64,000 bases of DNA, from positions 63,252-127,251 of the IMG/VR virus record IMGVR_UViG_2513237329_000013. One strand, 5' to 3'. The translations under genes were made by a program, and so were the position numbers. Source of the DNA: a virus (Duplodnaviria; Caudoviricetes). A model generated the notes under the pieces. The model made no database searches, was not told the origin of the DNA, and saw only the letters and a list, made by a program, of their open reading frames with translations. Within the stretch, counting starts at the first letter, position 1; every line of letters begins with the position of its first letter. Positions 4,288 through 33,508 of the stretch are shown in pieces.

Positions 4288-5214
4288 ATGGCAGCAAATG
4301 TCGAAACTATGTTCTATGTGCGTGAAAAGCCCTGGCACGGTCTGGGTGTTGAGGTTCAGGAAGCGTTGAATAGCGCTGATGCGCTGAAAATGGCTGGTCT
4401 TGATTGGGAGGTCAAGCAGAGAAACATTCAGGTATGTGGCGGTGCAAAGATCGAGAATTACAAGGCGAATGTTCGTAGCACAGACGGTCGTGTGCTTGGT
4501 GTTGTCTCTGACCGCTATCAGATCGTGCAGAATAAGGATGCTTTCAGCTTTACCGATGAGCTGATCGGCGGCGATGTCCGTTATGAGACCGCTGGTAGCT
4601 TGCAGAATGGCAAGAAGATTTGGCTGCTGGCAAAGATGCCTGAGCGCGAGGTCGTTGGCGATAAGGTCGAGCCGTATCTTTGCTTCTCGAATACGCACGA
4701 CGGGAGCGGTTCTATCCGTGTCTGCATGACTCCGATTCGTGTTGTCTGCAACAATACTTTGAATCTTGCGCTGAATAGCGCGAAGCGTCAGTGGGCAACA
4801 AAGCATGTCGGCAATATCGACGAGAAGATGCAAGAAGCGCGTATGTGTCTCCAGCTTGCGGATGCCTACATGGATGAGCTGGCTGTTTGCGCAGATCGCC
4901 TTGCAAATACGACAATCACCGATGAACAGCTTGATAAGCTTCTGGATGAGATGTTCCCTGTTGACGATGACGATACCGAGCGCAAGAAGAACAGCGTGAA
5001 AAAGGCAAAGGACGAGTTTATGATCTGCTATTTCCGTCCGGATATCATGAAGTTCCTTAACACTGGTTGGGGCGTTGTGAATGCTATGAGCGATATGATT
5101 TCTCATTCTGCCCCGCGCCGTCAGACTGGCAGCTACCGTGAAAACAACTGGAACAGAATCATGGACGGGCACAAGATGCTCGACCGCATGACAGAGCTTG
5201 TTTGCGCACGATAA
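4288..5214 (+). CDS. DUF932 / TIGR03299 phage-plasmid protein
   Basis: REKPWHGLG, AGLDWEV, YQIVQN, ETAGSL, HDGSGS, TPIRVVCNNTL signatures. Confidence 0.9.
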   Translation: MAANVETMFYVREKPWHGLGVEVQEALNSADALKMAGLDWEVKQRNIQVCGGAKIENYKANVRSTDGRVLGVVSDRYQIVQNKDAFSFTDELIGGDVRYETAGSLQNGKKIWLLAKMPEREVVGDKVEPYLCFSNTHDGSGSIRVCMTPIRVVCNNTLNLALNSAKRQWATKHVGNIDEKMQEARMCLQLADAYMDELAVCADRLANTTITDEQLDKLLDEMFPVDDDDTERKKNSVKKAKDEFMICYFRPDIMKFLNTGWGVVNAMSDMISHSAPRRQTGSYRENNWNRIMDGHKMLDRMTELVCAR

Positions 5215-10322: not shown

Positions 10323-10340
10323 GTGTATTGGAGGTGTAGC

Positions 10341-13300: not shown

Positions 13301-13394
13301 TGTGGACTATAATCTTCTGTCTGCTCTGATGTCACGCGAGGTGGATGAGAACGGGAAATTCCATATCAGGTGGGGCGAACAAGAAATTGCATGA
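10341..13394 (+). CDS. N6-adenine DNA methyltransferase fused to SNF2/SF2 helicase (DarB-like)
   Basis: GQFFTP, DLTCGMGNF (motif I), GNPPF (motif IV), QGCGKT Walker A, DESD, TGT. Confidence 0.85.
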   Translation: MKYKYLGQSIPQDSRRELNNKILYLVDNDLVESSGITCEDIYNAYTGDGGLHGLRYSDYNSYSEYSSAKKEIENGQFFTPDSVCKFIMDCLSLSNQDVFADLTCGMGNFFNYAPMEANAYGCELDAKAYKVAHYLYPKANLTCGDIRSYEPGIKLDYVIGNPPFNLRWWVDGAQILSQLYYCQKAAALLKPMGIMALVVPKSFLADDFSDSGLIKEMEKHFSFLGQFMLRADTFASMGVADYETKVQFWQRNSDMDSWKRNPYSTEMTMQVDCMNAAMVRKVREQIVADAQAVFVKNRSHILLELARDHDSSAEFLYNVKKYLYAIKTHPNLKEKYTKCCEYLNRYYTEKQPESMSYEEWCRVRLTEAKVLAYLRNVVKYQHPAQYEDKICLVKRDYDLVYKAYSPKMARQLSDEMKTPTPIYDIAISEEDTERYGRYARLLRRKQHEYSIEQQKFSEMIEDADIKSWLDGFVLHDEENEEDIMLNNLQKHDINLVLQKRYALLQWEQGCGKTLAGIAIGRYRMEQKNAFCTFVVSSAISIKNTWDVMLPNFGVRYVMVNKLVDLDKVQRGDFVLITLNKLGKYRKQVKRWVRIHNQNVALCFDESDEMTNPSSLRTKSVLDCFRRCRFKLEMTGTSTRNNISEFAPQLELAYNNSFNMISWCNTIYHYDRASKKDGVEEGLHVYGNPYYGQPIPAYHKGYNLFADSHLPEKITVFGVGQRTQDIYNADELDNILSRFVITRTLEEISGRDIKRIHQVPVRFTESERAVYTKAIEEFHVMRGNYFASTGNSRKDSMMRLIQQITLLLRISAAPNTIREYDGGLPTKIAKVIEMLQSMSGEIVAIGVRHKVVVDAYAKAIREIMPDRPLFVVTGSTTTLAKRRALRKTLKESKNGILLCTQQSLPSSVSFEYVDKVIIPELHYNNSRMSQFYMRFIRFTSKRMKDIYFVTYLGSIESNQMQMVLAKEKINMFMRGKDTDLDEIYNRFGVDYNLLSALMSREVDENGKFHIRWGEQEIA

Positions 13395-13678: not shown

Positions 13679-13882
13679 ATGGAAGAGACTTTCGTAAGAA
13701 TGCGCAAAGCAAATGGTGTAACGCAGCGAATGAAAGATTTCTGGACGGTTTCTGTGAAGGATGGAAAATATGTGATATCAGCTAATGGACAACCGATTTG
13801 TCATGGCACTGTTCAACTTGGACAGACATGCGAAGTCATTCTTCGTGAGTGTTGCGGCGGAGTTTTCAGTAGGGTTAGTTAG
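13679..13882 (+). CDS. Small hypothetical protein
   Basis: 67-aa ORF convergent with the ImmA-like gene. Confidence 0.5.
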   Translation: MEETFVRMRKANGVTQRMKDFWTVSVKDGKYVISANGQPICHGTVQLGQTCEVILRECCGGVFSRVS

Positions 13883-14489
13883 TAATTCTCTTCTGAAGAT
13901 ATACACGGCGCATGTCATTCTCCCAGGCGGTTTTTCTGTGATATCTTGTCCATTTCACATATTCAGACCAGCGGTGTTCAGATGCTTCTTTGGATAGGCC
14001 AAATACGCGCTTGATATCTGATGGAGATTCAATTCTGAGTATCTCATACAGCGGCATAGGGCAAAGTAATGTGGCGGCAAATTGATCTGCCTCCGATTCA
14101 AACTCCGGAGCAGTAAGGTTGTTAAAACCGTTTTCTGCAAGCATTGGTTCTGCGACCAGCGGAAGGTGCTTTAGGATGACATGTCCAAGTTCATGTGCTT
14201 TTGTCCATAATCTTCTCCCATCAACATTGTTATCGGCGCAATCTTCATTCCACAAGATAAGATAACGGTCATTTGCAATGTCATAGTGCGTACAGCCAGA
14301 TTTACTTTCACACAGAATGATTACATCCAGAACGGTACACTGGTTGATTGTAGCAAACTCCTGATAGGTCAGCGCTCTACAGTTTGGCAATTGTGCAAGG
14401 ATATCGTAGGTGCAGATTGGGAATGAGATGCTGTCCATTCCCCTATACACTTGCAATACTTGATTGTATATGTAAGGATATCTAATCAC
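13875..14489 (-). CDS. ImmA/IrrE-family metallopeptidase (anti-repressor)
   Basis: RRLWTKAHELGH and ESEADQFAATLLCP motifs. Confidence 0.9.
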   Translation of the reverse strand: MIRYPYIYNQVLQVYRGMDSISFPICTYDILAQLPNCRALTYQEFATINQCTVLDVIILCESKSGCTHYDIANDRYLILWNEDCADNNVDGRRLWTKAHELGHVILKHLPLVAEPMLAENGFNNLTAPEFESEADQFAATLLCPMPLYEILRIESPSDIKRVFGLSKEASEHRWSEYVKWTRYHRKTAWENDMRRVYLQKRITN

Positions 14490-14545
14490 GGATATATACC
14501 TCCAGTGGGATGTAGTATATCATATTCGGTGTCCAATAAAGCGGA

Positions 14546-14893
14546 CTAATTCTCGTCCTTAAAGGCATATTCAAAGCCAAGACGGATCATCTTCATCATT
14601 TTTTCACGATCTTGTGCTGACATTTTTGATTTTGCTCGCTGCAAGGATACAAAATCATCATCCGATAACAGTTCTTCCGCAGATGACGGAATGTCTGATA
14701 GTCCAATTAAGTAATCAGATGAAACGCCAAAGTATTTTGCGATGATCTTAACCTTATCAATAGACGGTGAAGTGTTTGTTTTCCATTTGCGGATTAAGGA
14801 TGTCCCGATTCCGAGATCTTCTTCCAATTTTGCCATAGTGATCCCGCGCTCAGCGCAAAGCTCCTTTATTCTAAGATACAAAATTGATTCCAT
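14546..14893 (-). CDS. XRE/Cro-CI HTH repressor (ImmR-like)
   Basis: RIKELCAERGITMAKLEEDLGIG...PSIDKVKIIAKYFGVSSDYLIG; GGAGG RBS before ATG 14893. Confidence 0.9.
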   Translation of the reverse strand: MESILYLRIKELCAERGITMAKLEEDLGIGTSLIRKWKTNTSPSIDKVKIIAKYFGVSSDYLIGLSDIPSSAEELLSDDDFVSLQRAKSKMSAQDREKMMKMIRLGFEYAFKDEN

Positions 14894-14935
14894 ATGGTTG
14901 TCCTCCAATGCAGATAATATTTTCACGCTTTTCTA

Positions 14936-17392: not shown

Positions 17393-18292
17393 ATGAGAAA
17401 GAATGGTTTTGTTGGTGCTATCGTTTTGGCGATCATCATTTTTGGCGGCGTGATTCTCGGTTTTAGCTGTACATCGCGTGTCCCTACCGGTTATGTCGGA
17501 GTCGTTTATAATATGAACGGCGGCGTTGATGGTGAGGTTCTGAGTCAGGGCTGGCATCTTGTAGCGCCTACAAAGAAAGTAACCACCTATTCTATCGGTT
17601 TGGAGCAGTCCTACCTTACAAGCGAGGAAAAGGGTGACTCTCCGAACGATGAGAGCTTTTCCATTCCGACGTCCGATGGCAAGACTGTTCGTGTAAATCT
17701 TGAGTTCTCTTACAGATTTGACGAAGAGCGTGTTGCTGAAACATTTACGACTTTCAAGGGCAAGTCTGGAGAACAGATTAAGGATACATTTATTAAGCCT
17801 AAGATTATTGCGTGGACGCAGGAGGTTTCTGCAAATTACCCCGTCACTGACATCTTTGGCGATAAGCGTACTGAAATCAATGCTGAGTTGGACACCTATT
17901 TGCGTGATAAGTTCGATAAGTACGGCATTATTATCGACACAGTAAACTTCACTGATATCAGTGTAGATGATGAAACCGCCGCCGCAATTCAGAAGAAGGT
18001 CACTGCGCAGCAGGAACTTGAACTGGCTAATATCGAGGCTCAGACTGCCAAGGTTCAGGCCGAAAAGGATCGTCAGGTTGCTGAAATCAACGCTGAGAAG
18101 CAGATCATTGATGCAAATGCGAAGGCTGAGGTAACGCGCATTGAAGCAGAAGCAGAAGCTCAGGCAAACCGTGAGATTGCCGCATCCCTCACCCCAAATC
18201 TGATTGAGAAGATCAAGTACGAGCGCTGGAATGGTGAGCTTCCTACCGTATCTGGTTCTGGAGCAATCGTCAGTATTGACGGCGTTGACTGA
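17393..18292 (+). CDS. SPFH/band-7/prohibitin membrane protein
   Basis: N-terminal TM, VPTGYVGV, GWHLVAP, AE-rich coiled coil, WNGELP. Confidence 0.9.
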   Translation: MRKNGFVGAIVLAIIIFGGVILGFSCTSRVPTGYVGVVYNMNGGVDGEVLSQGWHLVAPTKKVTTYSIGLEQSYLTSEEKGDSPNDESFSIPTSDGKTVRVNLEFSYRFDEERVAETFTTFKGKSGEQIKDTFIKPKIIAWTQEVSANYPVTDIFGDKRTEINAELDTYLRDKFDKYGIIIDTVNFTDISVDDETAAAIQKKVTAQQELELANIEAQTAKVQAEKDRQVAEINAEKQIIDANAKAEVTRIEAEAEAQANREIAASLTPNLIEKIKYERWNGELPTVSGSGAIVSIDGVD

Positions 18293-18590: not shown

Positions 18591-18602
18591 TAGCTACTTG
18601 TA

Positions 18603-18658
18603 ACGACGCGAACAGCAATTTTCTTACATATATTTGGGTTATATCGTACATGCGTCGT
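18603..18658 (+). ncRNA. ACAGCAA-module RNA 1 enclosing a Pro(TGG) anticodon stem-loop
   Basis: Closing stem ACGACGCG/TGCGTCGT; AACAGCAAT; ATATA-TTTGGGT-TATAT. Confidence 0.7.
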
Positions 18659-18686
18659 GTGAAATAAAACTTGGAGGAATAACATC

Positions 18687-18866
18687 GTGAAGCTGAAGTT
18701 CAATGTTGGTGATCGTGTTTTTGATAAGAAGTACGGTCATGGTGTGGTTCAGAGAGTTGATGCTGGAAACAGCGAGTTCCCGTATCTTATCTTCTACGAA
18801 GATGGGACGAAGATCTGGTATAAGGCAAAGGGTGTAACTCTTGCCCCTGCGGAACAGCAGGATTAA
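18687..18866 (+). CDS. Small Tudor/SH3-like protein (59 aa, not in ORF track)
   Basis: GGAGG RBS, GTG start; MKLKFNVGDRVFDKKYGHGVVQRVD...YLIFYEDG. Confidence 0.7.
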   Translation: MKLKFNVGDRVFDKKYGHGVVQRVDAGNSEFPYLIFYEDGTKIWYKAKGVTLAPAEQQD

Positions 18867-18876
18867 GTAAGTTAGA

Positions 18877-18933
18877 AAGACGCAAACAGCAATCTAACAA
18901 AATCAAACTTGAAATTTGACAGATAAGCGTCTT
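18877..18933 (+). ncRNA. ACAGCAA-module RNA 2 enclosing a Ser(TGA) anticodon stem-loop
   Basis: Stem AAGACGC/GCGTCTT; AACAGCAAT; TCAAA-CTTGAAA-TTTGA. Confidence 0.7.
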
Positions 18934-18945
18934 GTGGTGTGATAT

Positions 18946-19036
18946 GGAGTAGTAATCCTAACTGGTAAGGAAGTAGTTTGCTAAACTACCAGTAATCGGG
19001 AACGATGTGCAGGTTCGAGTCCTGTCTACTCCGCCA
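18946..19036 (+). tRNA. tRNA-Ser(GCT)
   Basis: GGAGTAG/CTACTCC acceptor, GTAGT-TTGCTAA-ACTAC, long variable arm, TTCGAGT, G-CCA. Confidence 0.92.
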
Positions 19037-19040
19037 ACAA

Positions 19041-19191
19041 AAGCAAGTAGACAAAGAGAAAGTCTGTTCGCAATCGAAGCCGGCAATCATTGATTATTTT
19101 GTCCGCTTTCTTCACGGTAACTGCATGGCAGGAGTGCGAATACAAAACAGATTGGGTTCTGTTGTATGGGAGCGTGGCCTATACCTTGCTT
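19041..19191 (+). ncRNA. Candidate structured ncRNA between tRNAs
   Basis: Closing stem AAGCAAG/CTTGCTT; internal hairpins TAGAC/GTCTG and TACAAAACAGA/TCTGTTGTA. Confidence 0.4.
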
Positions 19192-19198
19192 GATATAT

Positions 19199-19285
19199 GC
19201 TGATGTGATGGAACTGGCATACATGGGGGACTTAAAATCCCCCGCCGATTGTGGATTATGGGTTCGACTCCCATCATCAGCACCA
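19199..19285 (+). tRNA. tRNA-Leu(TAA)
   Basis: GCTGATG/CATCAGC acceptor, GGGGA-CTTAAAA-TCCCC, TTCGACT, A-CCA. Confidence 0.92.
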
Positions 19286-19367
19286 GCCGTTGTGATGATC
19301 GGCTTTCATCTCCTTCTTTGTGTGACGGTGGGACAGACCACTACTGCCGTGTAAGTGCGGCATAAAT

Positions 19368-19479
19368 GAGGGCGTCTGGATGACAGCTTTAAGGTGTATC
19401 GAACGGCGGACACCTACAGCAATGTTCTTTAAGAAAACTGGAATTTTTCTGCTTGCGGGTTCGATTCCCGTAGCTCTCA
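19368..19479 (+). ncRNA. tRNA-like RNA (GGA anticodon) with inserted ACAGCAA module 3
   Basis: GAGGGC/GCTCTC acceptor, T arm GCGGG-TTCGATT-CCCGT, AGAAAA-CTGGAAT-TTTTCT; insert AGGTGT/ACACCT + ACAGCAAT. Confidence 0.65.
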
Positions 19480-19548
19480 AAGCCGTTAAATAATCTTCTC
19501 GAATTGGTGAGCAATTCACAACTTCTCTGGGAAGATGTAATAAGAAAT

Positions 19549-19659
19549 GCAGAGGTAGCTCAGTCGGTAGAGCATCAGACAAAAAATGTGCTAAGCATTA
19601 GCACTAACAGCAATGTTAAAGGAATCCGAGTGTCGGAGGTTCGAGTCCTCCCCTCTGCG
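19549..19659 (+). ncRNA. tRNA body with ACAGCAA module 4 inserted in the anticodon loop (identity uncertain)
   Basis: GCAGAGG/CCTCTGC, D arm GCTC-AGTCGGTA-GAGC, T arm GGAGG/CCTCC; insert GTGCTAA-GCA-TTAGCAC-TAACAGCAAT. Confidence 0.75.
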
Positions 19660-19666
19660 TCTATAT

Positions 19667-19738
19667 TCGTGTGTAACATTTACGAAAGTACACCGTGGAT
19701 GCGATTGGTATATGTCAGTTCGATTCTGACCGCACGAG
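19667..19738 (+). pseudogene. Pseudo-tRNA (acceptor and T arm intact, D and anticodon arms degenerate)
   Basis: TCGTGTG/CGCACGA; GTCAG-TTCGATT-CTGAC. Confidence 0.55.
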
Positions 19739-19746
19739 CCTATAAT

Positions 19747-19861
19747 GCCAGGGTAGCTCAACTGGTAGAGCGCGTAATAATGCGACTTGTTAAGCCGCTT
19801 ACAGCAAATTTCTTTTGGTCTGTTAAACCCGTGGTTGCAGGTTCGATTCCTGCCCCTGGCT
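19747..19861 (+). ncRNA. tRNA-Asn(GTT)-like with ACAGCAA module 5 inserted in the anticodon stem
   Basis: GCCAGGG/CCCTGGC, canonical D and T arms, CG[insert]GGT-CTGTTAA-ACCCG; insert GCGACTT/AAGCCGC + TTACAGCAAA. Confidence 0.78.
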
Positions 19862-19881
19862 CAACGTGAATGACTGCTTAA

Positions 19882-19939
19882 ACCATTCTAAACCGACACG
19901 ACAAAAGGGTAGAAATGGTGACAGCTCGGAGAGACGGGC
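19882..19939 (+). ncRNA. Two-hairpin phage RNA motif (skipping-rope/DUF2800-like?)
   Basis: ACCATTCTA/TAGAAATGGT stem, then GACA-GCTCG-GAGAGA-CGGGC; family resemblance from memory only. Confidence 0.4.
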
Positions 19940-19947
19940 ATCTATAT

Positions 19948-20065
19948 ACGGCAGTGGTGAAGCGGTAACACAGCAGCCATACAAATGCGAAAAGTGGATT
20001 TTCGCTAACAGCTATTTCACACTCCAAGCTGCCAATCGTAGGTTCGATTCCTACCTGCCGTTCCA
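19948..20065 (+). ncRNA. tRNA-Gly(TCC)-like with ACAGCTA module 6 inserted in the anticodon loop
   Basis: ACGGCAG/CTGCCGT-T-CCA, GCAGC-C[insert]CTCCAA-GCTGC; insert GCGAAAA/TTTTCGC + TAACAGCTAT. Confidence 0.78.
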
Positions 20066-20125
20066 CGGGTATAGAGTTGACTTTTCCGTTCAAACAGCCC
20101 CTTATAAAGTTGGTAGTAACGGTAT

Positions 20126-20189
20126 GAGACGCACACAGCAATTTGTAAGTAAAGTATTTGGCCTGATAAGCGGATTTCTTTTGCGTCTC
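20126..20189 (+). ncRNA. ACAGCAA-module RNA 7 enclosing an Ile(GAT) anticodon-like loop
   Basis: Stem GAGACGCA/TGCGTCTC; CACAGCAAT; GC-CTGATAA-GC. Confidence 0.68.
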
Positions 20190-20201
20190 GCCCCCTCCTT
20201 T

Positions 20202-20237
20202 AAGACACAAACAGCATCGAGTGTGAAATGGTGTCTT
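20202..20237 (+). ncRNA. Minimal ACAGCA module 8 in the 5' leader of the DUF2828 gene
   Basis: Stem AAGACAC/GTGTCTT enclosing AAACAGCATC; no anticodon arm. Confidence 0.6.
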
Positions 20238-20260
20238 GAAGGCTATTTCAAGCGAAAAGA

Positions 20261-20274
20261 AATTAGTTAAACAA
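20261..20274 (+). promoter_or_regulatory. Dispersed operator box AATTAGTTAAACAA
   Basis: Identical 21-mer GAAAAGAAATTAGTTAAACAA also at about 35794; about 11 related copies in the window. Confidence 0.6.
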
Positions 20275-20292
20275 TTCAAGGAGGAAGTAGGT

Positions 20293-21837
20293 ATGAGTGG
20301 TTTTATGTCTGCTATGAAAAGCACTTTGAACGATGAGTTCAATGTTTCTGTTACTGAGAACGGTGCTATTGGCTATCGCACTACTGGCAAGGAACTGTTG
20401 GATCTCAACTTTGCCGTTGCATCTCTTCGTAAGGCATCTCCGAGCGATATTGCAAATCGTTTCGTCAGAGCGTTTTTCGAGGATAAGATCACGGCAATGA
20501 AATGGCTGTTCTTTGCGCGTGATGTTCGTGGAGGTCTTGGTGAACGCCGTTTGTTCCGCATTGTGTTTCAGCGCATGGCTGAGGAAAATCCGGAATACAT
20601 CATTCCGCTGCTTCCTCTCGTTCCTGAGTATGGACGCTATGATGACCTGTGGTGTTTGTTTGATACAAAGCTTGCACCTAATGTACTGAACATCATTGCG
20701 CAGCAGCTCCGCGAGGACATTCAGAACTTGAGTGATGGCAATGGTATTTCTCTTCTCGCAAAGTGGCTTCCGTCTGCGAATGCTCATTCCGCTGACGCAA
20801 AGCGTTATGCTAAGCAGATTTACAAGTTTATGGGCATTTCTGAGCGCGACTACCGTAAGGTGCTGTCCAAGCTGCGTTCTAAGCTGGATATCGTGGAGAA
20901 GAAAATGTCCGAAAAGCGTTGGGATGAGATTGCGTATGAAGCTGTCCCGTCTCGTGCAAATCTGATTTACAACTCTGCGTTCCTTCGTAACGACGAAGAT
21001 CGTCGCCGTGATTTCCTATCCCGTTTGGAAAAGGGCGAAACGAAAATCAATGCGTCTACGCTTTTCCCGCATGACATTGTTGCAAAGTATAGCGATGGTT
21101 GGCGTGGTCTGAAGCCTACGGATAAGACGCTTGAAGCTCTTTGGAACGCGCTTCCCGATACCGTAAACGGATGCGGCAATACAATTGTTGTTGCGGATGG
21201 CAGCGGCAGTATGACCGTGAATGTTGGCGGCGGCAATGTTACTGCGCTGGCTGTGGCAAACGCGCTTGCAATTTATTTCGCAGAGCGTTCCTCTGGTCAG
21301 TTCAAGGATAATTACATTACATTTTCTGAGCGTCCTCAGCTCGTCGATTTGAGTAAGGGTAAGAATCTCCGTGAGAAGATTCAGATTGCGCTTAAACACA
21401 GCGAGGTAGCAAACACAAATATCGAAGCGGTGTTTGATCTTATCCTGACTACGGCAAAGAAAAACAATATGGAACAGAGCGACCTTCCCGCAAACATCCT
21501 TATTATCTCCGATATGGAGTTTGACTACTGCGCAACATCGAATGGCGGAAGCCGATATACTCGTGGTAGTGTTGATTCTCGTCTGTTTGACAAGATTGCA
21601 AAGCGCTACGAGGACGCTGGGTATAAGTTACCAAGGCTTGTGTTCTGGAATGTGAATAGCCGCACGAATACTATTCCTATTAAGGAAAACGAGATGGGAG
21701 TTGCGCTTGTAAGCGGTTTTAGCCCGAACATCGCAAAGATGGTGATGAGCGGTCAAACCGATCCGTATGAGTGCTTGCTTGAAACGCTGAACTCTGATCG
21801 TTATAAGCCTATCGGTGACGCTCTGGAAAATCAGTAA
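20293..21837 (+). CDS. DUF2828 protein (TROVE/Ro60-like helical domain + vWA)
   Basis: TENGA, ARDVRGGLGERRLF, YGRYDDL, SLLAKWLPS, ADGSGSM (MIDAS), ISDMEFD, VFWNV, LVSGFSP. Confidence 0.88.
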   Translation: MSGFMSAMKSTLNDEFNVSVTENGAIGYRTTGKELLDLNFAVASLRKASPSDIANRFVRAFFEDKITAMKWLFFARDVRGGLGERRLFRIVFQRMAEENPEYIIPLLPLVPEYGRYDDLWCLFDTKLAPNVLNIIAQQLREDIQNLSDGNGISLLAKWLPSANAHSADAKRYAKQIYKFMGISERDYRKVLSKLRSKLDIVEKKMSEKRWDEIAYEAVPSRANLIYNSAFLRNDEDRRRDFLSRLEKGETKINASTLFPHDIVAKYSDGWRGLKPTDKTLEALWNALPDTVNGCGNTIVVADGSGSMTVNVGGGNVTALAVANALAIYFAERSSGQFKDNYITFSERPQLVDLSKGKNLREKIQIALKHSEVANTNIEAVFDLILTTAKKNNMEQSDLPANILIISDMEFDYCATSNGGSRYTRGSVDSRLFDKIAKRYEDAGYKLPRLVFWNVNSRTNTIPIKENEMGVALVSGFSPNIAKMVMSGQTDPYECLLETLNSDRYKPIGDALENQ

Positions 21838-22219: not shown

Positions 22220-22530
22220 TGCCAGATGTTGTTATGACGAATCATAGCGTGAAGCGAACAAAAGAAAGAATCGGACTAAGCAAGAAAATTGCCGATAAGA
22301 ATGCGCAGAGAGCGCTTGAATACGGTATTACACACTCTGAGGCAAAGGGTGGTTTGTGTCGGTATCTTGATAAGCTGTATCTGTCGAATGGTAATGCAAA
22401 TAATGTTCGTGTTTATCACAGATATGTATATCTCTTTCGTGGGAACACGCTTTTGACAATCATTCCATTACCAAACAAATTCTATGCTCTGGCGGACAAA
22501 CTTCAAAAACAGAAAGGCGAAGTAGAATGA
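22219..22530 (+). CDS. Basic hypothetical protein (possible RelE-like fold)
   Basis: MTNHSVKRTKER...YLFRGNTLLTII. Confidence 0.55.
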   Translation: MPDVVMTNHSVKRTKERIGLSKKIADKNAQRALEYGITHSEAKGGLCRYLDKLYLSNGNANNVRVYHRYVYLFRGNTLLTIIPLPNKFYALADKLQKQKGEVE

Positions 22531-23483
22531 GGATCGTAAAAACACATACCGGAAAAATTTATGTTGATAAGGATAAGAAACTGGAGTTTTTAACGGTTGG
22601 CGACTATGGCAAGGAAAACAATATTAAAGCAAGTTTTCTTGGTTTGAACAAAGAAATCAATGGTGTTCGACATCATGCGGTTGACCTGGCGGATAAGTGG
22701 GTTGCTACTATCAGCACTCAGAAAGGTTGCCCGATGAATTGTCAGTTTTGTGATTGTCCGAAGTATGGATTTCACGGAAATGTATCTCGTGAAGAACTGG
22801 TTTATGAAATTGAGACAATTCTTGCAAACGAACGAGTAACACATACTAATCGTTTCAATGTTCACTTTGCTCGTATGGGTGAACCTACATTCAACGATGC
22901 CGTTCTTCCGTTTGCTGAATTTGATTTGAAGTCGCTGGTGAATCGGTTCATTACGGCAGACACAATTCATCCTGTTGTTTCAACTATGCTTCCGAAAGTA
23001 AATGCCAATTTGAAGTCATTCATCATGGAATGGTGTCGCATCAAGAACAGTGTGTACAGTGGAGAAGCTGGTCTGCAATTTAGCATCAACTCGACTGATC
23101 AGGCGCAGCGTAATGAACAGTTCAACGGAAAGAGCTTATCATTATCAGAAATTTCAAGTCTCGCATCTAAGCTTCCTATGCCAGTCGGTAGAAAATACAC
23201 ATTGAATTTTGCGGTAACGGCTGACACGATTTTGGATGCGGTGGAGCTTGGAAAGTTGTTCGATAAGGAAAAGTTTATCGTAAAAATTACGCCGATTCAC
23301 CAGACAAATGCAGCCATTAAGAATGGATTTGATGTGACCACGGAATATACCGACTACGATGTTTACCGCAAGTTTGAAGATCCGCTTGTTGCTGCTGGAT
23401 GGGATGTCATTGTGTTCGTGCCGAGCGAGGAAGAAGATAGCGACCGTATTACTTGCGGAAATGCCTTAATTTCAGATAAGTGA
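22527..23483 (+). CDS. RlmN/Cfr-like radical SAM RNA methyltransferase
   Basis: STQKGCPMNCQFC, RMGEP, QFSINS, C-terminal TCG. Confidence 0.75.
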   Translation: MRIVKTHTGKIYVDKDKKLEFLTVGDYGKENNIKASFLGLNKEINGVRHHAVDLADKWVATISTQKGCPMNCQFCDCPKYGFHGNVSREELVYEIETILANERVTHTNRFNVHFARMGEPTFNDAVLPFAEFDLKSLVNRFITADTIHPVVSTMLPKVNANLKSFIMEWCRIKNSVYSGEAGLQFSINSTDQAQRNEQFNGKSLSLSEISSLASKLPMPVGRKYTLNFAVTADTILDAVELGKLFDKEKFIVKITPIHQTNAAIKNGFDVTTEYTDYDVYRKFEDPLVAAGWDVIVFVPSEEEDSDRITCGNALISDK

Positions 23484-25212: not shown

Positions 25213-26292
25213 GTGATTAAGAAGGTTGATCGGAAAAATCGGTTTGTAGCGATGTTTAATCCTACGACTGGCTTTTATGCTCGTAGCGGTGTGATTGATG
25301 AGAATGGTCATGACACCGGCGTAGATCCGTTTATGACAGCGTTCCCAGAGCTGATTGATGTCGGCGTGATGGGGCATTGTGTTCACGGAGCAAGCGGTCT
25401 TTGCTTTAAGTCTGGCGTTCAGTGCTATCAGAACGGATTAAAAACCAAAGAGCCAAATATGACGCTTGAAAATTTCAAACGCATTGTTGACGAATGTAAG
25501 GGTAAAACATTTCAGCTCGCGCTTGGCGGTCGTGGTGATGTTGACCAGCACGAAAATTTTGCTGAGATTTTGCAGTATTGTAGGGAAAACAATATCGTGC
25601 CGAATTTCACTTCTTCTGGGCTTGGCTTTACAGATGAGATTGTAGATCTGTGTAGAAGATACTGTGGTGCAGTAGCAATCTCCTGGTATCGTCAGAAACA
25701 TACATACCGTGCGATTCAGATGCTTTTGGATGCTGGCGTAAAAACGAACATTCATTATGTTCTTGGAAACAATTCTGTTGAAGAAGCAATTATGCGGCTA
25801 AAAAATAATGGTTTTCCTGCTGGCATTAACGCAGTGATTTTCCTTCTTCACAAACCCGTTGGACTCGGAAGCGAAGAGAATGTTTTGCAGATGGATAACC
25901 CGCTCGTAAGACAGTTCTTTGAGATCGTGGATACACAGAAATTCAATTTCAAAATTGGCTTCGACTCATGTTCTATTCCAGCCGTTTTGAATCTGACTCA
26001 CAATATTGACCACGATAGTATTGATACTTGCGAGGGTGGCAGATGGAGCATGTATATTACAAGCGATATGAAAGCTTTGCCTTGTAGCTTCGATAATCAA
26101 GAGCTGCGTTGGGCGTTTGATATTAGCAATGCAAGTATCGAAGAAGCTTGGAATAGTCAGCAGTTTGAAAGCTTCAGAAGCCATTTCAGAAATTCTTGCC
26201 CGAATTGTCAGTGCCAACACGCTTGTATGGGCGGTTGTCCGATTCGTCCGCAAGTAGTTTTGTGCGATAAGGTAGAAAAGGAGCTGTATTAA
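25213..26292 (+). CDS. Radical SAM/SPASM-domain protein
   Basis: Atypical CX7CX6C cluster motif, LGGRGD, CEGG...PCSF...CPNC...C..GCP SPASM. Confidence 0.85.
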   Translation: MIKKVDRKNRFVAMFNPTTGFYARSGVIDENGHDTGVDPFMTAFPELIDVGVMGHCVHGASGLCFKSGVQCYQNGLKTKEPNMTLENFKRIVDECKGKTFQLALGGRGDVDQHENFAEILQYCRENNIVPNFTSSGLGFTDEIVDLCRRYCGAVAISWYRQKHTYRAIQMLLDAGVKTNIHYVLGNNSVEEAIMRLKNNGFPAGINAVIFLLHKPVGLGSEENVLQMDNPLVRQFFEIVDTQKFNFKIGFDSCSIPAVLNLTHNIDHDSIDTCEGGRWSMYITSDMKALPCSFDNQELRWAFDISNASIEEAWNSQQFESFRSHFRNSCPNCQCQHACMGGCPIRPQVVLCDKVEKELY

Positions 26293-30208: not shown

Positions 30209-31648
30209 ATGTACGCAGCATATGTAACTCGTATTAAGAATTTGCGCAAACATTCAAACGCGGATCGACTTCTCTGCGGTGAATGTTTTGGCAATACGGT
30301 AATTGTGGGCTTGGATACAAAGCCAGAAGAGCTTGGTGTTTATTTCCCCGTAGATGGCAAGCTTGGAACTGAGTATGCGGTGAAGAATGACCTGCTTCGG
30401 CGTAAGGATGAAAACGGTAAGCCGGCTGGTGGTTATCTCGATCCTGAAAAGCGCAATATTAAGGCGTTGAAGCTTCGTGGCGAAAAGAGCGATGGCTTGT
30501 TTATGCCGTTGTCCAGTTTGAACGGGTTTACGGATATTGCAAAGCTCCGTGAGGGCGATGTAATTACCATTTTGAATGGTGTCACAATTTGTGAGAAGTA
30601 TATCCCACGTCGTAAGAAGAGTACCATTATGGTTGGGGGGGGTAGGACTCGTAAGCATCACGATCCTATTGCCCCGCTCTTTGCGGAACATGCTGACACG
30701 GAACAGCTTGCATATAACCTCAGCGCATTTCACCAAGGCGATCTTGTTGAGATTACTTTGAAAATGCACGGTACATCTCAGCGAACCGGATATCTGCCAA
30801 CGCTTAAAGGATATAAGAGGACATTGCTTGATAAACTCCTACATCGCGTTGGTTCTCCGATTTATAATTGGGGATATGTAACTGGCACTCGTCGTGTTGT
30901 TCTGGATGATTTTGACGGCGGCTTCTATGGCAGCAATGCTTTCCGTGAACAGCATAGCAAGGTTTTTGAAGGTAAGCTTCATAAGGGCGAAACCGTGTAC
31001 TATGAAGTCGTTGGCTTTACGCAAGACAAGCAGCCTATTATGGCATCTTGCGACAATAAAAAAGTCGGTGATAAGGAATTTGTTAAACAATACGGAGAAA
31101 AGACAGTGTTTAGCTATGGTTGCTATCCGGACGGTGTAAAGGAAGTAACAAATCCGAAAATTACATACGCAACAGTAATGATTGGCGATACCTCTTTTAC
31201 AGCAAATGAGATTACGGAATATGAATCTGCTCCGCAGTCTGATTTTTATGTGTATCGAATGACGATGACAAATGAGGATGGCGATGTTGTCGAATACACA
31301 CCTGACTTTATGCGTTATCGTTGTGAGCAGATGGGTGTTAAGTGCGTTCCGCTATTCGCTCGATTCATCATTCCGGATTACATCCAGCTTCCTGATGCTG
31401 TTGGATCTCCGATGGCTGTCAATGCTGGCGAATATGTCAAGGAGATTGCCGAAAACTTCTATGATGGTGCAGACCCGATTGGTAAGTCGCATGTCCGAGA
31501 GGGCGTTGTTTGCCGTATCGTAAACCGCCCAAAGTTTACAGCATATAAGCACAAGAATTTTGCATTCAAGGTACTTGAGGGAATTGTAAAGGATATTGCG
31601 TCTGCTCCGGACATGGAAGAAGCGCAGGATGAGACAAGCGCCGCGTAA
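30209..31648 (+). CDS. ATP-dependent RNA ligase (DRB0094/Rnl-like) with N-terminal OB/tRNA-binding-like domain
   Basis: HSNADRL, KLRGEKSDGL, TLKMHGTS (motif I), YYEVVG, REGVV, KHKNFAF. Confidence 0.8.
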   Translation: MYAAYVTRIKNLRKHSNADRLLCGECFGNTVIVGLDTKPEELGVYFPVDGKLGTEYAVKNDLLRRKDENGKPAGGYLDPEKRNIKALKLRGEKSDGLFMPLSSLNGFTDIAKLREGDVITILNGVTICEKYIPRRKKSTIMVGGGRTRKHHDPIAPLFAEHADTEQLAYNLSAFHQGDLVEITLKMHGTSQRTGYLPTLKGYKRTLLDKLLHRVGSPIYNWGYVTGTRRVVLDDFDGGFYGSNAFREQHSKVFEGKLHKGETVYYEVVGFTQDKQPIMASCDNKKVGDKEFVKQYGEKTVFSYGCYPDGVKEVTNPKITYATVMIGDTSFTANEITEYESAPQSDFYVYRMTMTNEDGDVVEYTPDFMRYRCEQMGVKCVPLFARFIIPDYIQLPDAVGSPMAVNAGEYVKEIAENFYDGADPIGKSHVREGVVCRIVNRPKFTAYKHKNFAFKVLEGIVKDIASAPDMEEAQDETSAA

Positions 31649-31767: not shown

Positions 31768-32589
31768 ATGAGTGACAGAGTAAAGATTATGAAACGGCTT
31801 TCTGAACACCTCGAAGCAGTAAGAGACAAACACCCTGAGTGGGTTGGTATTTTTCTTCAAGGTTCACAAAACTACAACTTAGACTATGAGGGAAGCGATA
31901 TTGATTCCAAGCTGATTGTCCTCCCTTCGTTTGAAGATTTTGTTTTGAACAAAAGACCATATAGTTACACACACATCATGGAAAACGATGAACATGTAGA
32001 TGTTAAGGATATTCGTCTGATGCTCGATTGCTTCAAAAAGCAGAATGTAAATTTTGTTGAGATTCTTTTTACGCCGTACCGTATCTTGAATCCAAAGTAC
32101 GAAGCTTTGTTCCAGCCGATTCTTGATATTGCAGAGAGAGTCGGTCGATATAACAACTATGCCGCATTGAATTGCATGGTAGGAATGGCGCTCGAAAAGC
32201 AAAAGGCATTGTGCCACCCATATCCTGCAACAAAAGACAAGATTGATAAATACGGGTTCGATAGCAAACAGTATCATCACATTGAGCGTCTTTATGAATT
32301 CATGCAGCGTTGGCTTAATGGCGAGCCATATCGTGATTGCCTCGTTTCTAAACAAGTGGAGCGTCTTAGAGAAATCAAGCTTTATATTAACTGCGATCTT
32401 ACAACGGCGCAGGTCAATTCGGATAGAATCGTATCTGAGATGAAATCAATCAAGGACACTTATATGCAGCAGAATCCAGTTGTAGTAGACCGTGAGGTTG
32501 ATTCGGTTTTCAATAAAGTTCTGCTTGATTTATTTAAGTTCAACTTCCAGTGCGAGCTTGGTAACGACTCGCCCAATAAAAAGGAGTAA
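31768..32589 (+). CDS. DNA pol-beta-superfamily nucleotidyltransferase
   Basis: GSQNYNL...SDID; KQNVNFVEILF. Confidence 0.8.
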   Translation: MSDRVKIMKRLSEHLEAVRDKHPEWVGIFLQGSQNYNLDYEGSDIDSKLIVLPSFEDFVLNKRPYSYTHIMENDEHVDVKDIRLMLDCFKKQNVNFVEILFTPYRILNPKYEALFQPILDIAERVGRYNNYAALNCMVGMALEKQKALCHPYPATKDKIDKYGFDSKQYHHIERLYEFMQRWLNGEPYRDCLVSKQVERLREIKLYINCDLTTAQVNSDRIVSEMKSIKDTYMQQNPVVVDREVDSVFNKVLLDLFKFNFQCELGNDSPNKKE

Positions 32590-32593
32590 GAAT

Positions 32594-33508
32594 ATGTCTA
32601 TCTTTTTTATGATGGTAGGTCTTCCGTACAGCGGAAAATCTGTTTATGCGGAGGGGCTGCGAGAGAAGTTCGGCGCAGAGATTCATTCCAGCGATGCAAT
32701 TCGAGCAGAGATTCTTGGAAATGTACAGGATCAGACAAACAATCAGATTGTTTTTGACACTCTGCACAAGCGTGTAATTTCTGATTTGTCTGCTGGTAAA
32801 AATGTAATCTACGACGCGACGAATATCAATTACAAGCGGCGTATTGATCTGCTGAATCGCTTGTCAAAGGTAAAGTGTCAGAAGGTCTGTATCGTTATGG
32901 CGACACCTTTTCACGAATGTGAAGAGCGTAGCAAGCATCGTGAGCGTGTTGTCCCACACGAGGTTCTTGTGCGTATGTATAAGAATTTCTGGATTCCATA
33001 CTGGTATGAGGGGTGGGACGTAATCGAGCTTGTTTATCCAGATAATTTTGAGCCGTACAGTGTAAGTGATTTATTTAATCGTGATGGAGGACTGAATAGC
33101 TTCGAGCAGGACAATCCGCATCATATTTTCACGGTTGGACATCATTGTATTGCTACATACGGGCTGGTTTCTGATGGAAGTGCAGAGCTTCAGGAGGCTG
33201 CTCTTCTTCATGATATCGGTAAGCCTTTCACAAAAAGCTTTGTTAATAGTAAGGGCGAAACAACAGAGATTGCTCATTATTATGAACATCAGCATGTTTC
33301 AGCCTATGATAGCTTGTTCTACTCAAATCCAAGTTTGAATCGGCTGTATATCGCAAATATCATCCAGTGGCATATGCGTCCGTTTGAACTTGAACGAGAT
33401 TCCCATTCTGGCAAAGCACAGAAGCGGTTCAAAAAGCTTGTTGGCAATAAGCTTTATTCAGATGTGATGAAACTTCACGCCGCTGATATCGAAGCAAAAG
33501 GAACTTGA
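32594..33508 (+). CDS. Polynucleotide kinase (AAA_33) + HD phosphohydrolase
   Basis: GLPYSGKS, SSDAIR, YDATN; HH...ALLHDIGK...HM...D. Confidence 0.85.
   Translation: MSIFFMMVGLPYSGKSVYAEGLREKFGAEIHSSDAIRAEILGNVQDQTNNQIVFDTLHKRVISDLSAGKNVIYDATNINYKRRIDLLNRLSKVKCQKVCIVMATPFHECEERSKHRERVVPHEVLVRMYKNFWIPYWYEGWDVIELVYPDNFEPYSVSDLFNRDGGLNSFEQDNPHHIFTVGHHCIATYGLVSDGSAELQEAALLHDIGKPFTKSFVNSKGETTEIAHYYEHQHVSAYDSLFYSNPSLNRLYIANIIQWHMRPFELERDSHSGKAQKRFKKLVGNKLYSDVMKLHAADIEAKGT

What the first reader, a model, noticed from the sequence alone, without database searches (positions are those of the whole stretch)
18603..21837. Candidate new RNP system: array of anticodon-displaying 'ACAGCAA' RNAs upstream of a Ro60/TROVE-like DUF2828 gene
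Seen: eight copies of a module made of a helix strand ending CRC, one base, then HACAGCWW (GACGC-G-AACAGCAAT 18605; GACGC-A-AACAGCAAT 18879; GACAC-C-TACAGCAAT 19409; AGCAC-T-AACAGCAAT 19600; GCCGC-T-TACAGCAAA 19794; TTCGC-T-AACAGCTAT 20001; GACGC-A-CACAGCAAT 20128; GACAC-A-AACAGCATC 20204). The CRC strand always pairs with a GYG strand, while the rest of the helix sequence varies. Six copies are followed 3' by an anticodon-type loop with a different anticodon (TGG, TGA, GGA, GTT, TCC, GAT). The last, minimal copy sits in the leader of the DUF2828 gene. Known: Ro60/TROVE-vWA proteins bind Y RNAs, bacterial Y RNAs can be tRNA mimics, and they often cluster with RNA-repair genes. Inference: the motif is the binding site for DUF2828, and the RNPs display a panel of anticodon loops, either as decoys or substrates against host anticodon nucleases or to recruit repair. 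The leader copy could provide autoregulation. The motif does not match the canonical Y RNA Ro-binding helix.
Basis: partly seen in the sequence, partly recalled or inferred. Interest (0 to 1): 0.95.

Follow-up and report, generated by a model that had tools for sequence, protein, structure and literature searches.

The report
Ro60-like protein with handle-tagged tRNA-mimic RNAs
A gut phage encodes a ring protein shaped like the RNA-binding autoantigen Ro60, preceded by eight small RNAs that share one short handle (a 7-bp stem followed by ACAGCAA) joined to tRNA anticodon arms or whole tRNA bodies; it looks like a widespread, uncatalogued relative of the Ro60/Y-RNA particle, probably used in the phage-host fight over tRNA.

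Summary
Eight same-strand copies of a module, a 7-bp helix followed by 2 nt and then ACAGCAA, lie at 18.6-20.24 kb just upstream of a DUF2828/vWA gene. Four more sit in the phage's main tRNA array outside the window.

The module comes in two circularly permuted forms:
- Type I: stand-alone RNAs closed by the helix (E1, E2, E7, E8).
- Type II: a hairpin inserted 5' of the anticodon in tRNA-shaped genes (E3-E6).

The module is tied to the gene:
- It lies upstream in 74 of 80 phage loci and 63 of 72 bacterial loci, with protein identity down to about 45%.
- In whole bacterial genomes the covariance-model hits fall almost only beside DUF2828.
- 8 of 10 phage contigs chosen for the module alone encode DUF2828 elsewhere.

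The protein model matches Ro60 over its full length (Z 10-14.6). Rfam holds no such family, and I found no paper describing it.

Best reading: these are Y-RNA-like partners of a Ro60-like protein whose variable part mimics anticodon arms or tRNAs, acting in tRNA damage and repair conflicts. An RNA ligase and a polynucleotide kinase lie 10 kb downstream.

Binding, processing and function are all untested. An intron reading is unlikely.

Earlier AI notes record this scan finding the same system on other DNA: 214 notes in at least 162 genomes.

The parts
18601..18660 (+). E1, type I module RNA. The 7-bp closing helix is 18603-18609 with 18652-18658, followed by a G. Inside lie ACAGCAA and an anticodon-like hairpin (TGG).
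   Evidence: Model R1 gives 45.4 bits, E 1.7e-9. Sequence.
18875..18935 (+). E2, type I module RNA with a 5-bp stem and a 7-nt loop carrying TGA. The loop is conserved while the stem shows compensatory changes in relatives.
   Evidence: R1 gives 55.7 bits, E 3.3e-12. Compared with L012 and L017.
19367..19487 (+). E3, a tRNA-shaped RNA with an acceptor stem, a degenerate D region, the module with a long P1 loop, an anticodon arm (GGA) and a T arm. The P1 loop pairs with the 3' trailer to form a pseudoknot.
   Evidence: Alignment A3 of 15 orthologues is 93.8% paired overall. The pseudoknot is 100% paired, with 3 of 5 pairs changed on both sides.
19549..19659 (+). E4, a tRNA body with the module hairpin (type II) in place of a normal anticodon loop. 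No canonical anticodon is present.
   Evidence: Rfam tRNA gives 52.6 bits with a 44-nt insert. R2 gives 43.4 bits.
19747..19861 (+). E5, a tRNA body (anticodon GTT) with the module inserted between positions 28 and 29 of the anticodon stem.
   Evidence: Rfam tRNA gives 46.8 bits with a 55-nt insert. R2 gives 38.1 bits. In orthologues the split stem covaries and the anticodon changes.
19948..20062 (+). E6, a tRNA body (TCC) with the module at the 5' side of the anticodon loop. The motif variant here is ACAGCTA.
   Evidence: Rfam tRNA gives 48.6 bits with a 49-nt insert. R2 gives 34.4 bits.
20124..20191 (+). E7, type I module RNA. Its payload has a GAT loop on a weak stem.
   Evidence: R1 gives 40.6 bits, E 3.3e-8.
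20200..20239 (+). E8, a minimal type I module without an anticodon arm. It ends 53 nt before the start codon of the DUF2828 gene.
   Evidence: R1 gives 29 bits. The fold has z -4.2. A copy at this place recurs before homologues of only 38-41% identity.
20293..21837 (+). Gene for a 514-aa DUF2828 + DUF7788 + vWA protein with a full-length Ro60-like fold and an intact MIDAS motif.
   Evidence: Pfam. PHROG 850, 'RNA-binding protein', E 6e-140. Foldseek and VIA-align against Ro60 structures. D302, S304 and S306 are invariant.
17393..18292 (+). Band_7/SPFH gene upstream of the RNA array, a frequent neighbour of the system.
   Evidence: Pfam E 2e-26. Present within 3.5 kb upstream in 30 of 80 related loci.
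30209..31648 (+). RNA ligase gene. It is context only; a functional link to the RNP is inferred, not shown.
   Evidence: PHROG 968, E 2.4e-64. Weak match to PF09414.
32492..33508 (+). Gene for a P-loop polynucleotide kinase fused to an HD phosphohydrolase. Context only.
   Evidence: Pfam AAA_33 and HD. PHROG 505, polynucleotide kinase.

Best explanation
The eight elements are genes for small non-coding RNAs that share a protein-docking handle. The handle is a 7-bp helix (P1) whose 3' side runs, after two variable bases, into single-stranded ACAGCAA plus a U-rich stretch. An A-rich stretch (AAAU) leads into the other strand of the helix.

The handle is joined to a variable payload: an anticodon stem-loop mimic, or a whole tRNA-shaped body. 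The join can take either of two circularly permuted topologies.

The RNAs are probably cut out of one transcript that also carries two ordinary tRNAs and the mRNA of the downstream gene. That gene encodes a Ro60-like ring protein (DUF2828 + vWA).

Inferred: the protein binds the handle, as Ro60 binds the conserved helix of Y RNAs, and stabilises the RNAs. The resulting particles present anticodon arms or tRNA look-alikes to enzymes that attack or mend tRNA. They could act as decoys for host anticodon nucleases or as platforms for the phage's own ligase and kinase.

Shown here: the RNA architecture with its covariation, the genomic coupling to DUF2828, and the protein fold. Not shown: transcription, processing, binding, and any effect on tRNA cleavage.
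For: 1. Coupling from gene to RNA.
- The strict motif lies on the + strand within 2 kb upstream of the gene in 74 of 80 IMG/VR loci with 55-99% protein identity. About 374 hits are on the + strand and 11 on the - strand.
- With a relaxed definition it is found in 63 of 72 loci from bacterial genomes, 119 copies in the 1 kb upstream against 35 on the whole - strand.

2. Coupling from RNA to gene.
- Of 10 virus records picked only for a complete module, 8 carry PF11443 elsewhere. The two without are 7% and 48% complete.
- Among five chance-hit control records, the only one with PF11443 also has a second motif within 3 kb, so it is probably a real carrier.

3. Genome-wide specificity.
- In three bacterial genomes (12.3 Mb), 8 of 9 R2 hits lie at most 1.2 kb upstream of a DUF2828 gene.
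- In a sample of 150 Clostridia genomes, all four that carry PF11443 above Pfam's cut-off have modules upstream of the gene. None of the other genomes of the sample gave an R2 hit at E <= 1e-4.

4. RNA structure.
- P1 is 7 bp in both topologies and covaries strongly. All 7 pairs change on both sides in 43 type II cores.
- The E3-type RNA has five covarying helices, including a pseudoknot to its 3' trailer.

5. Protein.
- The nine best full-length structural matches are all Ro60/TROVE, with Z 14.6-9.9 and 357-404 aligned residues. Foldseek E-values run from 4e-9 to 9e-6.

6. Precedent.
- Bacterial and phage Ro60 genes are flanked by Y RNAs with tRNA-like domains (PMC4201824).
- Phage phiLo Ro60 binds two upstream Y-like RNAs (PMC12135203).
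- One relative (L110) carries a permuted tRNA with a closed acceptor stem inside the handle, which is the YrlA layout.

7. These are not decoders.
- The phage has canonical tRNAs with the same anticodons (GTT, TCC, TGG, TGA, GAT) in its main array.
- Orthologous bodies carry different anticodons.

8. An RNA ligase and a polynucleotide kinase/HD gene lie in the same window.
Against: - No RNA data: no run on record as RNA holds the stretch, and only DNA contigs could be laid.
- No binding data.
- The handle does not resemble the Ro-binding helix of known Y RNAs. Rfam YrlA scores 21 bits against a threshold of 69.
- The protein has no Pfam TROVE match. The structure model is of middling confidence (pLDDT 70.5).
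- Only about a third of type I payloads are canonical anticodon loops, so 'anticodon display' does not cover all members.
- Copies inside the main tRNA array, 37 kb from the gene, show that adjacency is not obligatory.
- Most loci are related phages, so counts of loci are not counts of independent events.
Confidence: 0.6

Rival explanations
1. The module is a short intron or processing signal of phage tRNA genes. It is cut out, and the halves are rejoined by the phage RNA ligase and kinase to yield ordinary tRNAs. DUF2828 would be a splicing or chaperone factor.
For: E4-E6 pass the Rfam tRNA threshold with a 44-55 nt insert. Removing the E5 insert between positions 28 and 29 restores a perfect 5-bp anticodon stem and a 7-nt loop, here and in orthologues. 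A ligase and a kinase are encoded nearby.
Against: - Type I copies (E1, E2, E7, E8, and 173 of 322 unique copies in relatives) have no exons to join.
- In the E3 type the P1 loop pairs with the 3' trailer and covaries, which makes sense only if the module stays in the mature RNA.
- The insertion point differs between bodies (28/29, 31/32, about 32/33). After any simple excision E4 and E6 lack U33.
- Orthologous bodies carry different anticodons.
- Canonical tRNAs with the same anticodons exist elsewhere in the genome.
- Bacterial relatives have acceptor plus T-arm minihelices with the module and no anticodon at all.
- Rfam finds no intron family here.
Confidence: 0.07
2. The handle docks another factor: a host or phage RNase, ligase, PNPase or modification enzyme. 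DUF2828 would contact the RNAs elsewhere, for example at their 3' ends through its central hole, or only share the pathway.
For: In known Ro60 particles the Y RNA has two modules, one for Ro60 and one for an effector such as PNPase (PMC4201824, PMC12135203). The handle differs from known Ro-binding helices. Modules also occur far from the gene.
Against: The handle is the only part common to all the RNAs, and DUF2828 is the only protein gene common to all loci. Band_7 is present in 30 of 80 loci and other neighbours in 26 or fewer. In bacterial chromosomes the locus is just two module RNAs plus DUF2828 among unrelated genes.
Confidence: 0.15
3. The module is a cis-regulatory leader (attenuator, riboswitch or autoregulatory operator) of the DUF2828 operon that has been duplicated.
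For: A copy sits 25-60 nt before the start codon in most loci, including very distant homologues.
Against: Most copies are embedded in tRNA-shaped genes or lie between tRNAs. Some are 20-37 kb from the gene. Payloads vary while only the handle is kept. No terminator-like hairpin follows the leader copy on the + strand.
Confidence: 0.05
4. The module is a very small self-cleaving ribozyme. Natural circular permutation is typical of that class.
For: There are two permuted topologies, with a small invariant single-stranded core next to a helix.
Against: No match to any ribozyme family of Rfam at E <= 10. The conserved core, 7 nt plus an A-rich strand, is smaller than any known self-cleaver. Its tight coupling to one protein family is not expected for a ribozyme.
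Confidence: 0.04

Closest known systems
Ro60/Rsr with YrlA-type Y RNAs of bacteria and phages (Rfam RF02553; Chen et al. 2014, PMC4201824; phage phiLo Ro60 with Yrl1 and Yrl2, PMC12135203)
   Same: - A ring-shaped HEAT-repeat plus vWA protein is encoded beside one or more small RNAs on the same strand.
- The RNAs have a closing stem plus a tRNA-like part.
- It occurs in both phages and bacteria.
- RNA-repair genes lie in the neighbourhood.
   Different: - The protein belongs to Pfam DUF2828/DUF7788, not TROVE.
- The conserved RNA element (7-bp helix, 2 nt, ACAGCAA) is unlike the known Ro-binding helix, and YrlA scores only 21 bits.
- The handle occurs in two permuted topologies, including as an insert in complete tRNA bodies.
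- Arrays reach 8-12 RNAs per genome.
- Many payloads are bare anticodon stem-loops with differing anticodons.
Phage-encoded tRNAs that counter anticodon nucleases (for example the T5 tRNA that neutralises PARIS, PMC11464382) and the T4 Pnkp/Rnl tRNA repair pathway
   Same: It is phage-borne, centred on anticodon loops, and co-encoded with an RNA ligase and a polynucleotide kinase.
   Different: Those are functional decoding tRNAs or enzymes. Here the RNAs carry a handle that should prevent decoding. They duplicate anticodons already supplied by canonical phage tRNAs, and they pair with a Ro60-like protein.
Intron-containing tRNA genes (group I introns in bacterial tRNAs; bulge-helix-bulge introns in archaea)
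   Same: An insert of about 40-55 nt sits in the anticodon arm of a tRNA gene.
   Different: - There is no group I intron signature.
- The insert position varies.
- The same element exists free of any tRNA.
- In E3 it pairs with the 3' trailer.
- Excision does not always give a canonical anticodon loop.

Membership tests
Ro60/TROVE proteins | Helical-repeat ring followed by a C-terminal vWA domain (full-length architecture) | tested here: met
   The AF2 model (pLDDT 70.5) aligns to 9kop, 9l5y, 2nvo, 9nen, 2i91, 1yvp and 1yvr over residues about 30-508. Z is 14.6-9.9 with 357-404 residues aligned. The top 13 Foldseek hits are all Ro60/TROVE.
Ro60/TROVE proteins | Sequence match to the Pfam TROVE domain | tested here: not met
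   Pfam at E <= 0.01 gives only DUF7788, DUF2828 and VWA_2. A profile search of PDB sequences finds no Ro60.
Ro60/TROVE proteins | MIDAS motif (DxSxS) in the vWA domain | tested here: met
   D302, S304 and S306 are invariant in 14 homologues of 68-82% identity to the window's protein.
Ro60/TROVE proteins | Binds Y RNA on the outer surface and misfolded RNA ends in the central hole | not testable with these tools
   This needs biochemistry or a structure of the complex.
Y RNA, YrlA type (RF02553) | Reaches the Rfam gathering score | tested here: not met
   The best match is 21.3 bits against 69, E 0.19. It spans parts of two neighbouring tRNA-like genes.
Y RNA, YrlA type (RF02553) | Encoded next to the Ro60-type gene | tested here: met
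Y RNA, YrlA type (RF02553) | Stem formed by the 5' and 3' ends, plus a tRNA-like domain with T arm, closed acceptor stem and D arm | tested here: inconclusive
   Type I RNAs have the terminal stem. One relative (L110) has the permuted tRNA layout. The window's own copies carry either a bare anticodon arm or an unpermuted tRNA body.
tRNA (RF00005) | Cloverleaf reaching the Rfam threshold | tested here: met
   E4, E5 and E6 score 52.6, 46.8 and 48.6 bits (threshold 29), but only when 44-55 nt are treated as an insert. ARAGORN does not call them.
tRNA (RF00005) | Uninterrupted 5-bp anticodon stem and 7-nt loop with U33, usable in decoding | tested here: not met
   The module interrupts the stem (E5) or the loop (E4, E6). 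E4 and E6 lack U33 even after removing the module.
tRNA introns (group I) | Group I intron core in the anticodon loop | tested here: not met
   No intron family appears in Rfam scans at gathering score or at E <= 10. The insert is only about 40-55 nt.

The most novel reading that the evidence does not exclude
The handle plus the Ro60-like protein form a modular display particle. Any anticodon arm or tRNA body can be grafted onto the handle, in either topology. A phage then carries a panel tuned to the anticodon nucleases of its hosts, serving as protected decoys or as sensors that call in the co-encoded ligase and kinase. That would be a new class of RNA-based anti-defence, and the first function for the large DUF2828 branch of Ro60-like proteins.
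Probability: 0.3. Interest if true: 0.9.

Novelty: new variant of a known kind. Interest (0 to 1): 0.8.

Why it matters
Ro60 and Y RNAs are conserved from bacteria to humans, yet what they do in bacteria and phages is poorly understood.

This system would add three things:
- A large, sequence-divergent branch of the protein family. More than 8000 homologues passed E <= 1e-10 in one capped search.
- A simple, recognisable RNA handle for that branch.
- Payloads that point directly at the anticodon arm of tRNA.

Together these give a testable link between Ro-type particles and the phage-host conflict over tRNA cleavage and repair.

It also explains a class of odd 'tRNA genes with 40-nt inserts' that tRNA finders miss or mis-call in gut phages and Clostridia. 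The handle itself is a compact candidate tag for protein-RNA tethering.

Tried and rejected
Contexts came from the search for related loci and the genome search instead.
- No RNA holder was listed for the stretch. The four runs laid were DNA contigs and showed no joined form across any module. This says nothing on expression or splicing.
- The exact 14-base scan of IMG/VR gave mostly chance hits. Only those with a closing helix were used.
- Deleting the module in silico and running ARAGORN found a tRNA body for 84 of 88 type II copies. It accepted almost any boundary, so it cannot place splice sites.
- A second helix between the U-rich stretch after ACAGCAA and the A-rich stretch before P1 has no support beyond base composition. 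Type I averaged 3.47 paired bases against 3.30 +/- 0.07 with permuted partners; type II showed no excess.
- Consensus promoter and terminator scans found nothing useful on the + strand of the array.
- The R2 scan of 150 Clostridia genomes scored only about 42 candidates per genome and missed three positive genomes. Targeted searches then found their modules.
- Burroughs and Aravind 2016 and the 2020 Annual Review on bacterial Ro60 are not held. What I say about them rests on citations in PMC7824862.
- Literature searches for DUF2828, for TROVE with phage, and for anticodon decoys found no description of this RNA.
- The gene after a leader-type module in L103 and L192 has no Pfam match.

Full report
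WHAT IS THERE

ARAGORN calls two ordinary tRNAs between them, Ser GCT at 18946-19036 and Leu TAA at 19199-19285.

Rfam's tRNA model also matches 19549-19659, 19747-19861 and 19948-20062. It does so only by skipping 44, 55 and 49 nt in the anticodon arm. Those skipped stretches are copies E4, E5 and E6.

So the eight copies fall into two forms:
- Type I (E1, E2, E7, E8). A 7-bp helix formed by the two ends of the element encloses, in order: two variable bases, ACAGCAA, a U-rich linker, a payload, and an A-rich stretch.
- Type II (E3-E6). The same helix is a closed hairpin, the same ACAGCAA strand follows it, and the whole unit sits 5' of the anticodon inside a tRNA-shaped gene.

The two forms are circular permutations of one junction.

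THE GENE

The ORF at 20293-21837 matches Pfam DUF7788, DUF2828 and, weakly, VWA_2, and PHROG 850, 'RNA-binding protein'.

An AlphaFold2 model (pLDDT 70.5) finds only Ro60/TROVE structures at the top of the list:
- Foldseek E-values run from 4e-9 to 9e-6.
- VIA-align gives Z 14.6 to 9.9 with 357-404 residues aligned across both the helical ring and the vWA domain.
- vWA-only matches align 160-190 residues.

The MIDAS residues are invariant in homologues. No TROVE match is seen at the sequence level.

IS THE MODULE TIED TO THE GENE?

From gene to RNA:
- 80 IMG/VR loci with homologues of 55-99% identity were fetched. The strict pattern (CRC, two bases, ACAGC) is on the + strand upstream of the gene in 74 of them.
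- About 374 hits are on the + strand and 11 on the - strand. The hits are concentrated between -2000 and 0 relative to the start, with a few just after the stop.
- In 80 loci from species-representative bacterial genomes (Oscillospiraceae, Lachnospiraceae and others) the strict pattern failed for the roughly 50%-identity Lachnospiraceae clade. Reading the sequences showed why: the same module is there with another helix base, and the hairpin is closed by a GNRA loop.
- With the relaxed definition (7-bp helix, 2 nt, ACAGCNA), 63 of 72 eligible loci have a copy in the 1 kb upstream. That is 119 copies there, against 35 on the whole - strand.

From RNA to gene:
- Ten virus records were chosen only because they held a complete type I module with no DUF2828 in the local stretch. 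Eight carry PF11443 elsewhere. The two exceptions are 7% and 48% complete.
- Of five control records with a chance pattern match, one has PF11443. That record also has a second motif within 3 kb, so it is probably a real carrier.

Genome-wide:
- Model R2 gave nine hits in three bacterial genomes (12.3 Mb). Eight lie at most 1.2 kb upstream of a DUF2828 gene, one of them at a second DUF2828 gene that I had not known of.
- In a sample of 150 Clostridia genomes, four carry PF11443 above Pfam's cut-off and all four have modules upstream of it.
- None of the other genomes of the sample gave an R2 hit at E <= 1e-4. That scan scored few candidates per genome.

STRUCTURE OF THE RNAS

- P1 is 7 bp in both topologies, and in type I a G follows it in 149 of 173 copies.
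- A helix of 7 bp or more is found for 64% of motif hits and 6.7% of decoys.
- In 43 diverse type II cores all seven pairs change on both sides. The covariation score is 1.08, against 0.26 in shuffles and at most 0.23 with the partner strand slid by one to three columns.
- Type I shows the same, with a more conserved helix sequence. That set was selected for pairing.
- The only near-invariant letters are ACAGCAA.
- Among type I payloads, 45 of 125 have a stem of 4 bp or more and a 7-nt loop of the form Y-U-NNN-R, against 5.2 +/- 2.1 in shuffles. The commonest anticodons are TTT, TGA and TGG. These counts are not phylogenetically independent.
- The E2 loop is conserved while its stem changes by compensation.
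- The E3-type RNA is a roughly 120-nt tRNA-shaped molecule. Its acceptor stem, P1, anticodon arm and T arm all covary, and its P1 loop pairs with the 3' trailer. That pseudoknot is 100% paired in 15 sequences, with 3 of 5 pairs changed on both sides.

INTRON OR PERMANENT PART?

For the intron reading:
- Removing the E5 insert restores a perfect anticodon stem, here and in orthologues.

Against it:
- Type I copies have nothing to splice.
- The E3 trailer pairing needs the module to stay in the RNA.
- The insertion point differs between bodies.
- E4 and E6 lack U33 after any simple excision.
- Orthologous bodies carry different anticodons (GTT, TTT, GCT, TGT).
- Bacterial relatives include acceptor plus T-arm minihelices that carry the module and no anticodon.
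- The phage already has canonical tRNAs for the displayed anticodons.

I rate the intron reading at about 7%.

WIDER CONTEXT IN THIS GENOME

The window is part of a 127-kb provirus record. Outside the window, a 6-kb array holds 21 canonical tRNAs, a tmRNA and a ROOL RNA. Four more type I modules are packed between those tRNAs, 37 kb from DUF2828, so the RNAs act in trans.

Inside the window, 10 kb downstream, lie an RNA ligase and a polynucleotide kinase fused to an HD domain. A Band_7/SPFH gene precedes the array here and in 30 of 80 related loci.

In Lachnospiraceae chromosomes the system is reduced to two module RNAs plus the gene, among unrelated genes.

HOW IT LIKELY WORKS

The handle is the only part the RNAs share, and DUF2828 is the only gene the loci share. 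The simplest reading is that the protein binds the handle.

The precedent is direct. Ro60 binds a conserved helix of Y RNAs. Bacterial and phage Y RNAs carry tRNA-like domains (PMC4201824). A phage Ro60 binds two upstream Y-like RNAs and recruits host PNPase (PMC12135203).

The payloads suggest that the particles present anticodon arms or tRNA shapes to something that recognises tRNA. Given the ligase and kinase, I favour a role in the conflict over tRNA cleavage, either as a decoy or as a repair platform. This step is inference.

The leader copy may give autoregulation. It may equally reflect co-transcription with the mRNA: the last RNA ends 25-60 nt before the start codon in most loci.

NOVELTY

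Rfam 15 has no family for it, and the paper searches found no description.

In kind it is a Ro60/Y-RNA-like particle, so I class it as a new variant of a known kind. Four features set it apart:
- a different handle;
- permuted grafting onto tRNA bodies;
- large arrays;
- anticodon-arm payloads.

Earlier AI notes of this scan describe the same system on other DNA and reach the same reading. I formed mine before reading them and do not count them as evidence.

Noticed in passing
Outside the window: G000:C1:38000-50000 (locus L213), - strand: The same provirus record carries its main tRNA array here: 21 canonical tRNAs, a tmRNA (86.5 bits) and a ROOL RNA (RF03087, 394 bits). Four type I modules are wedged between the tRNAs. 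A terminase large subunit gene follows.
   Followed up: partly
window 19676-19742 (+): A further tRNA-like piece lies here. It has a 7-bp acceptor-type stem and a good T arm, but no D arm, no recognisable anticodon arm and no ACAGCAA module. Together with the D arm of E5 it produced the weak YrlA match in Rfam.
   Followed up: partly
L247-L298, for example L261:3050-3500, L271:3336-3448: In Lachnospiraceae chromosomes the module hairpin has an AAG/CTT base instead of GYG/CRC and is closed by a GNRA tetraloop. The G of that loop corresponds to the conserved unpaired G after the type I helix. Each locus has one tRNA-shaped RNA and one acceptor plus T-arm minihelix.
   Followed up: partly
L254, L256, L264, L279, L283, L295, L249: about 230-400 nt upstream of the DUF2828 start: A conserved box of about 20 nt, ending in TTTTTTGAAATG, precedes the first module RNA in these bacterial loci. 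It could be a promoter or an operator.
   Followed up: no
L261:2202-2863 (-): A PIN-domain (VapC-like) gene with a small upstream partner lies divergently beside the module RNAs in Lachnospiraceae bacterium COE1. PIN toxins of this kind often cut tRNA. It may be chance.
   Followed up: no
L103:2422-2976 and L192: A complete leader-type module sits about 40 nt before a 156-aa ORF with no Pfam match, instead of before DUF2828. The L103 contig was not searched for the family. The L192 contig, 48% complete, has no PF11443.
   Followed up: partly
window 22527-23483 and 25213-26292 (+): A radical SAM gene (PHROG 24834) and a SPASM-domain radical SAM gene lie just downstream of DUF2828. They are kept in only 4 of 80 related loci, so they are probably not part of the system.
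   Followed up: partly
window 10323-13394 (+): A 1023-aa fusion of an N6 DNA methylase with an SNF2/ResIII helicase. Nearby are a DUF932 gene (4288-5214) and a divergent pair of an HTH repressor and an M78 peptidase (13875-14926, - strand).
   Followed up: no
G016:C5:10683-12075 (-): Dysosmobacter segnis carries a second DUF2828 gene on another contig, again with a module hit just upstream.
   Followed up: partly
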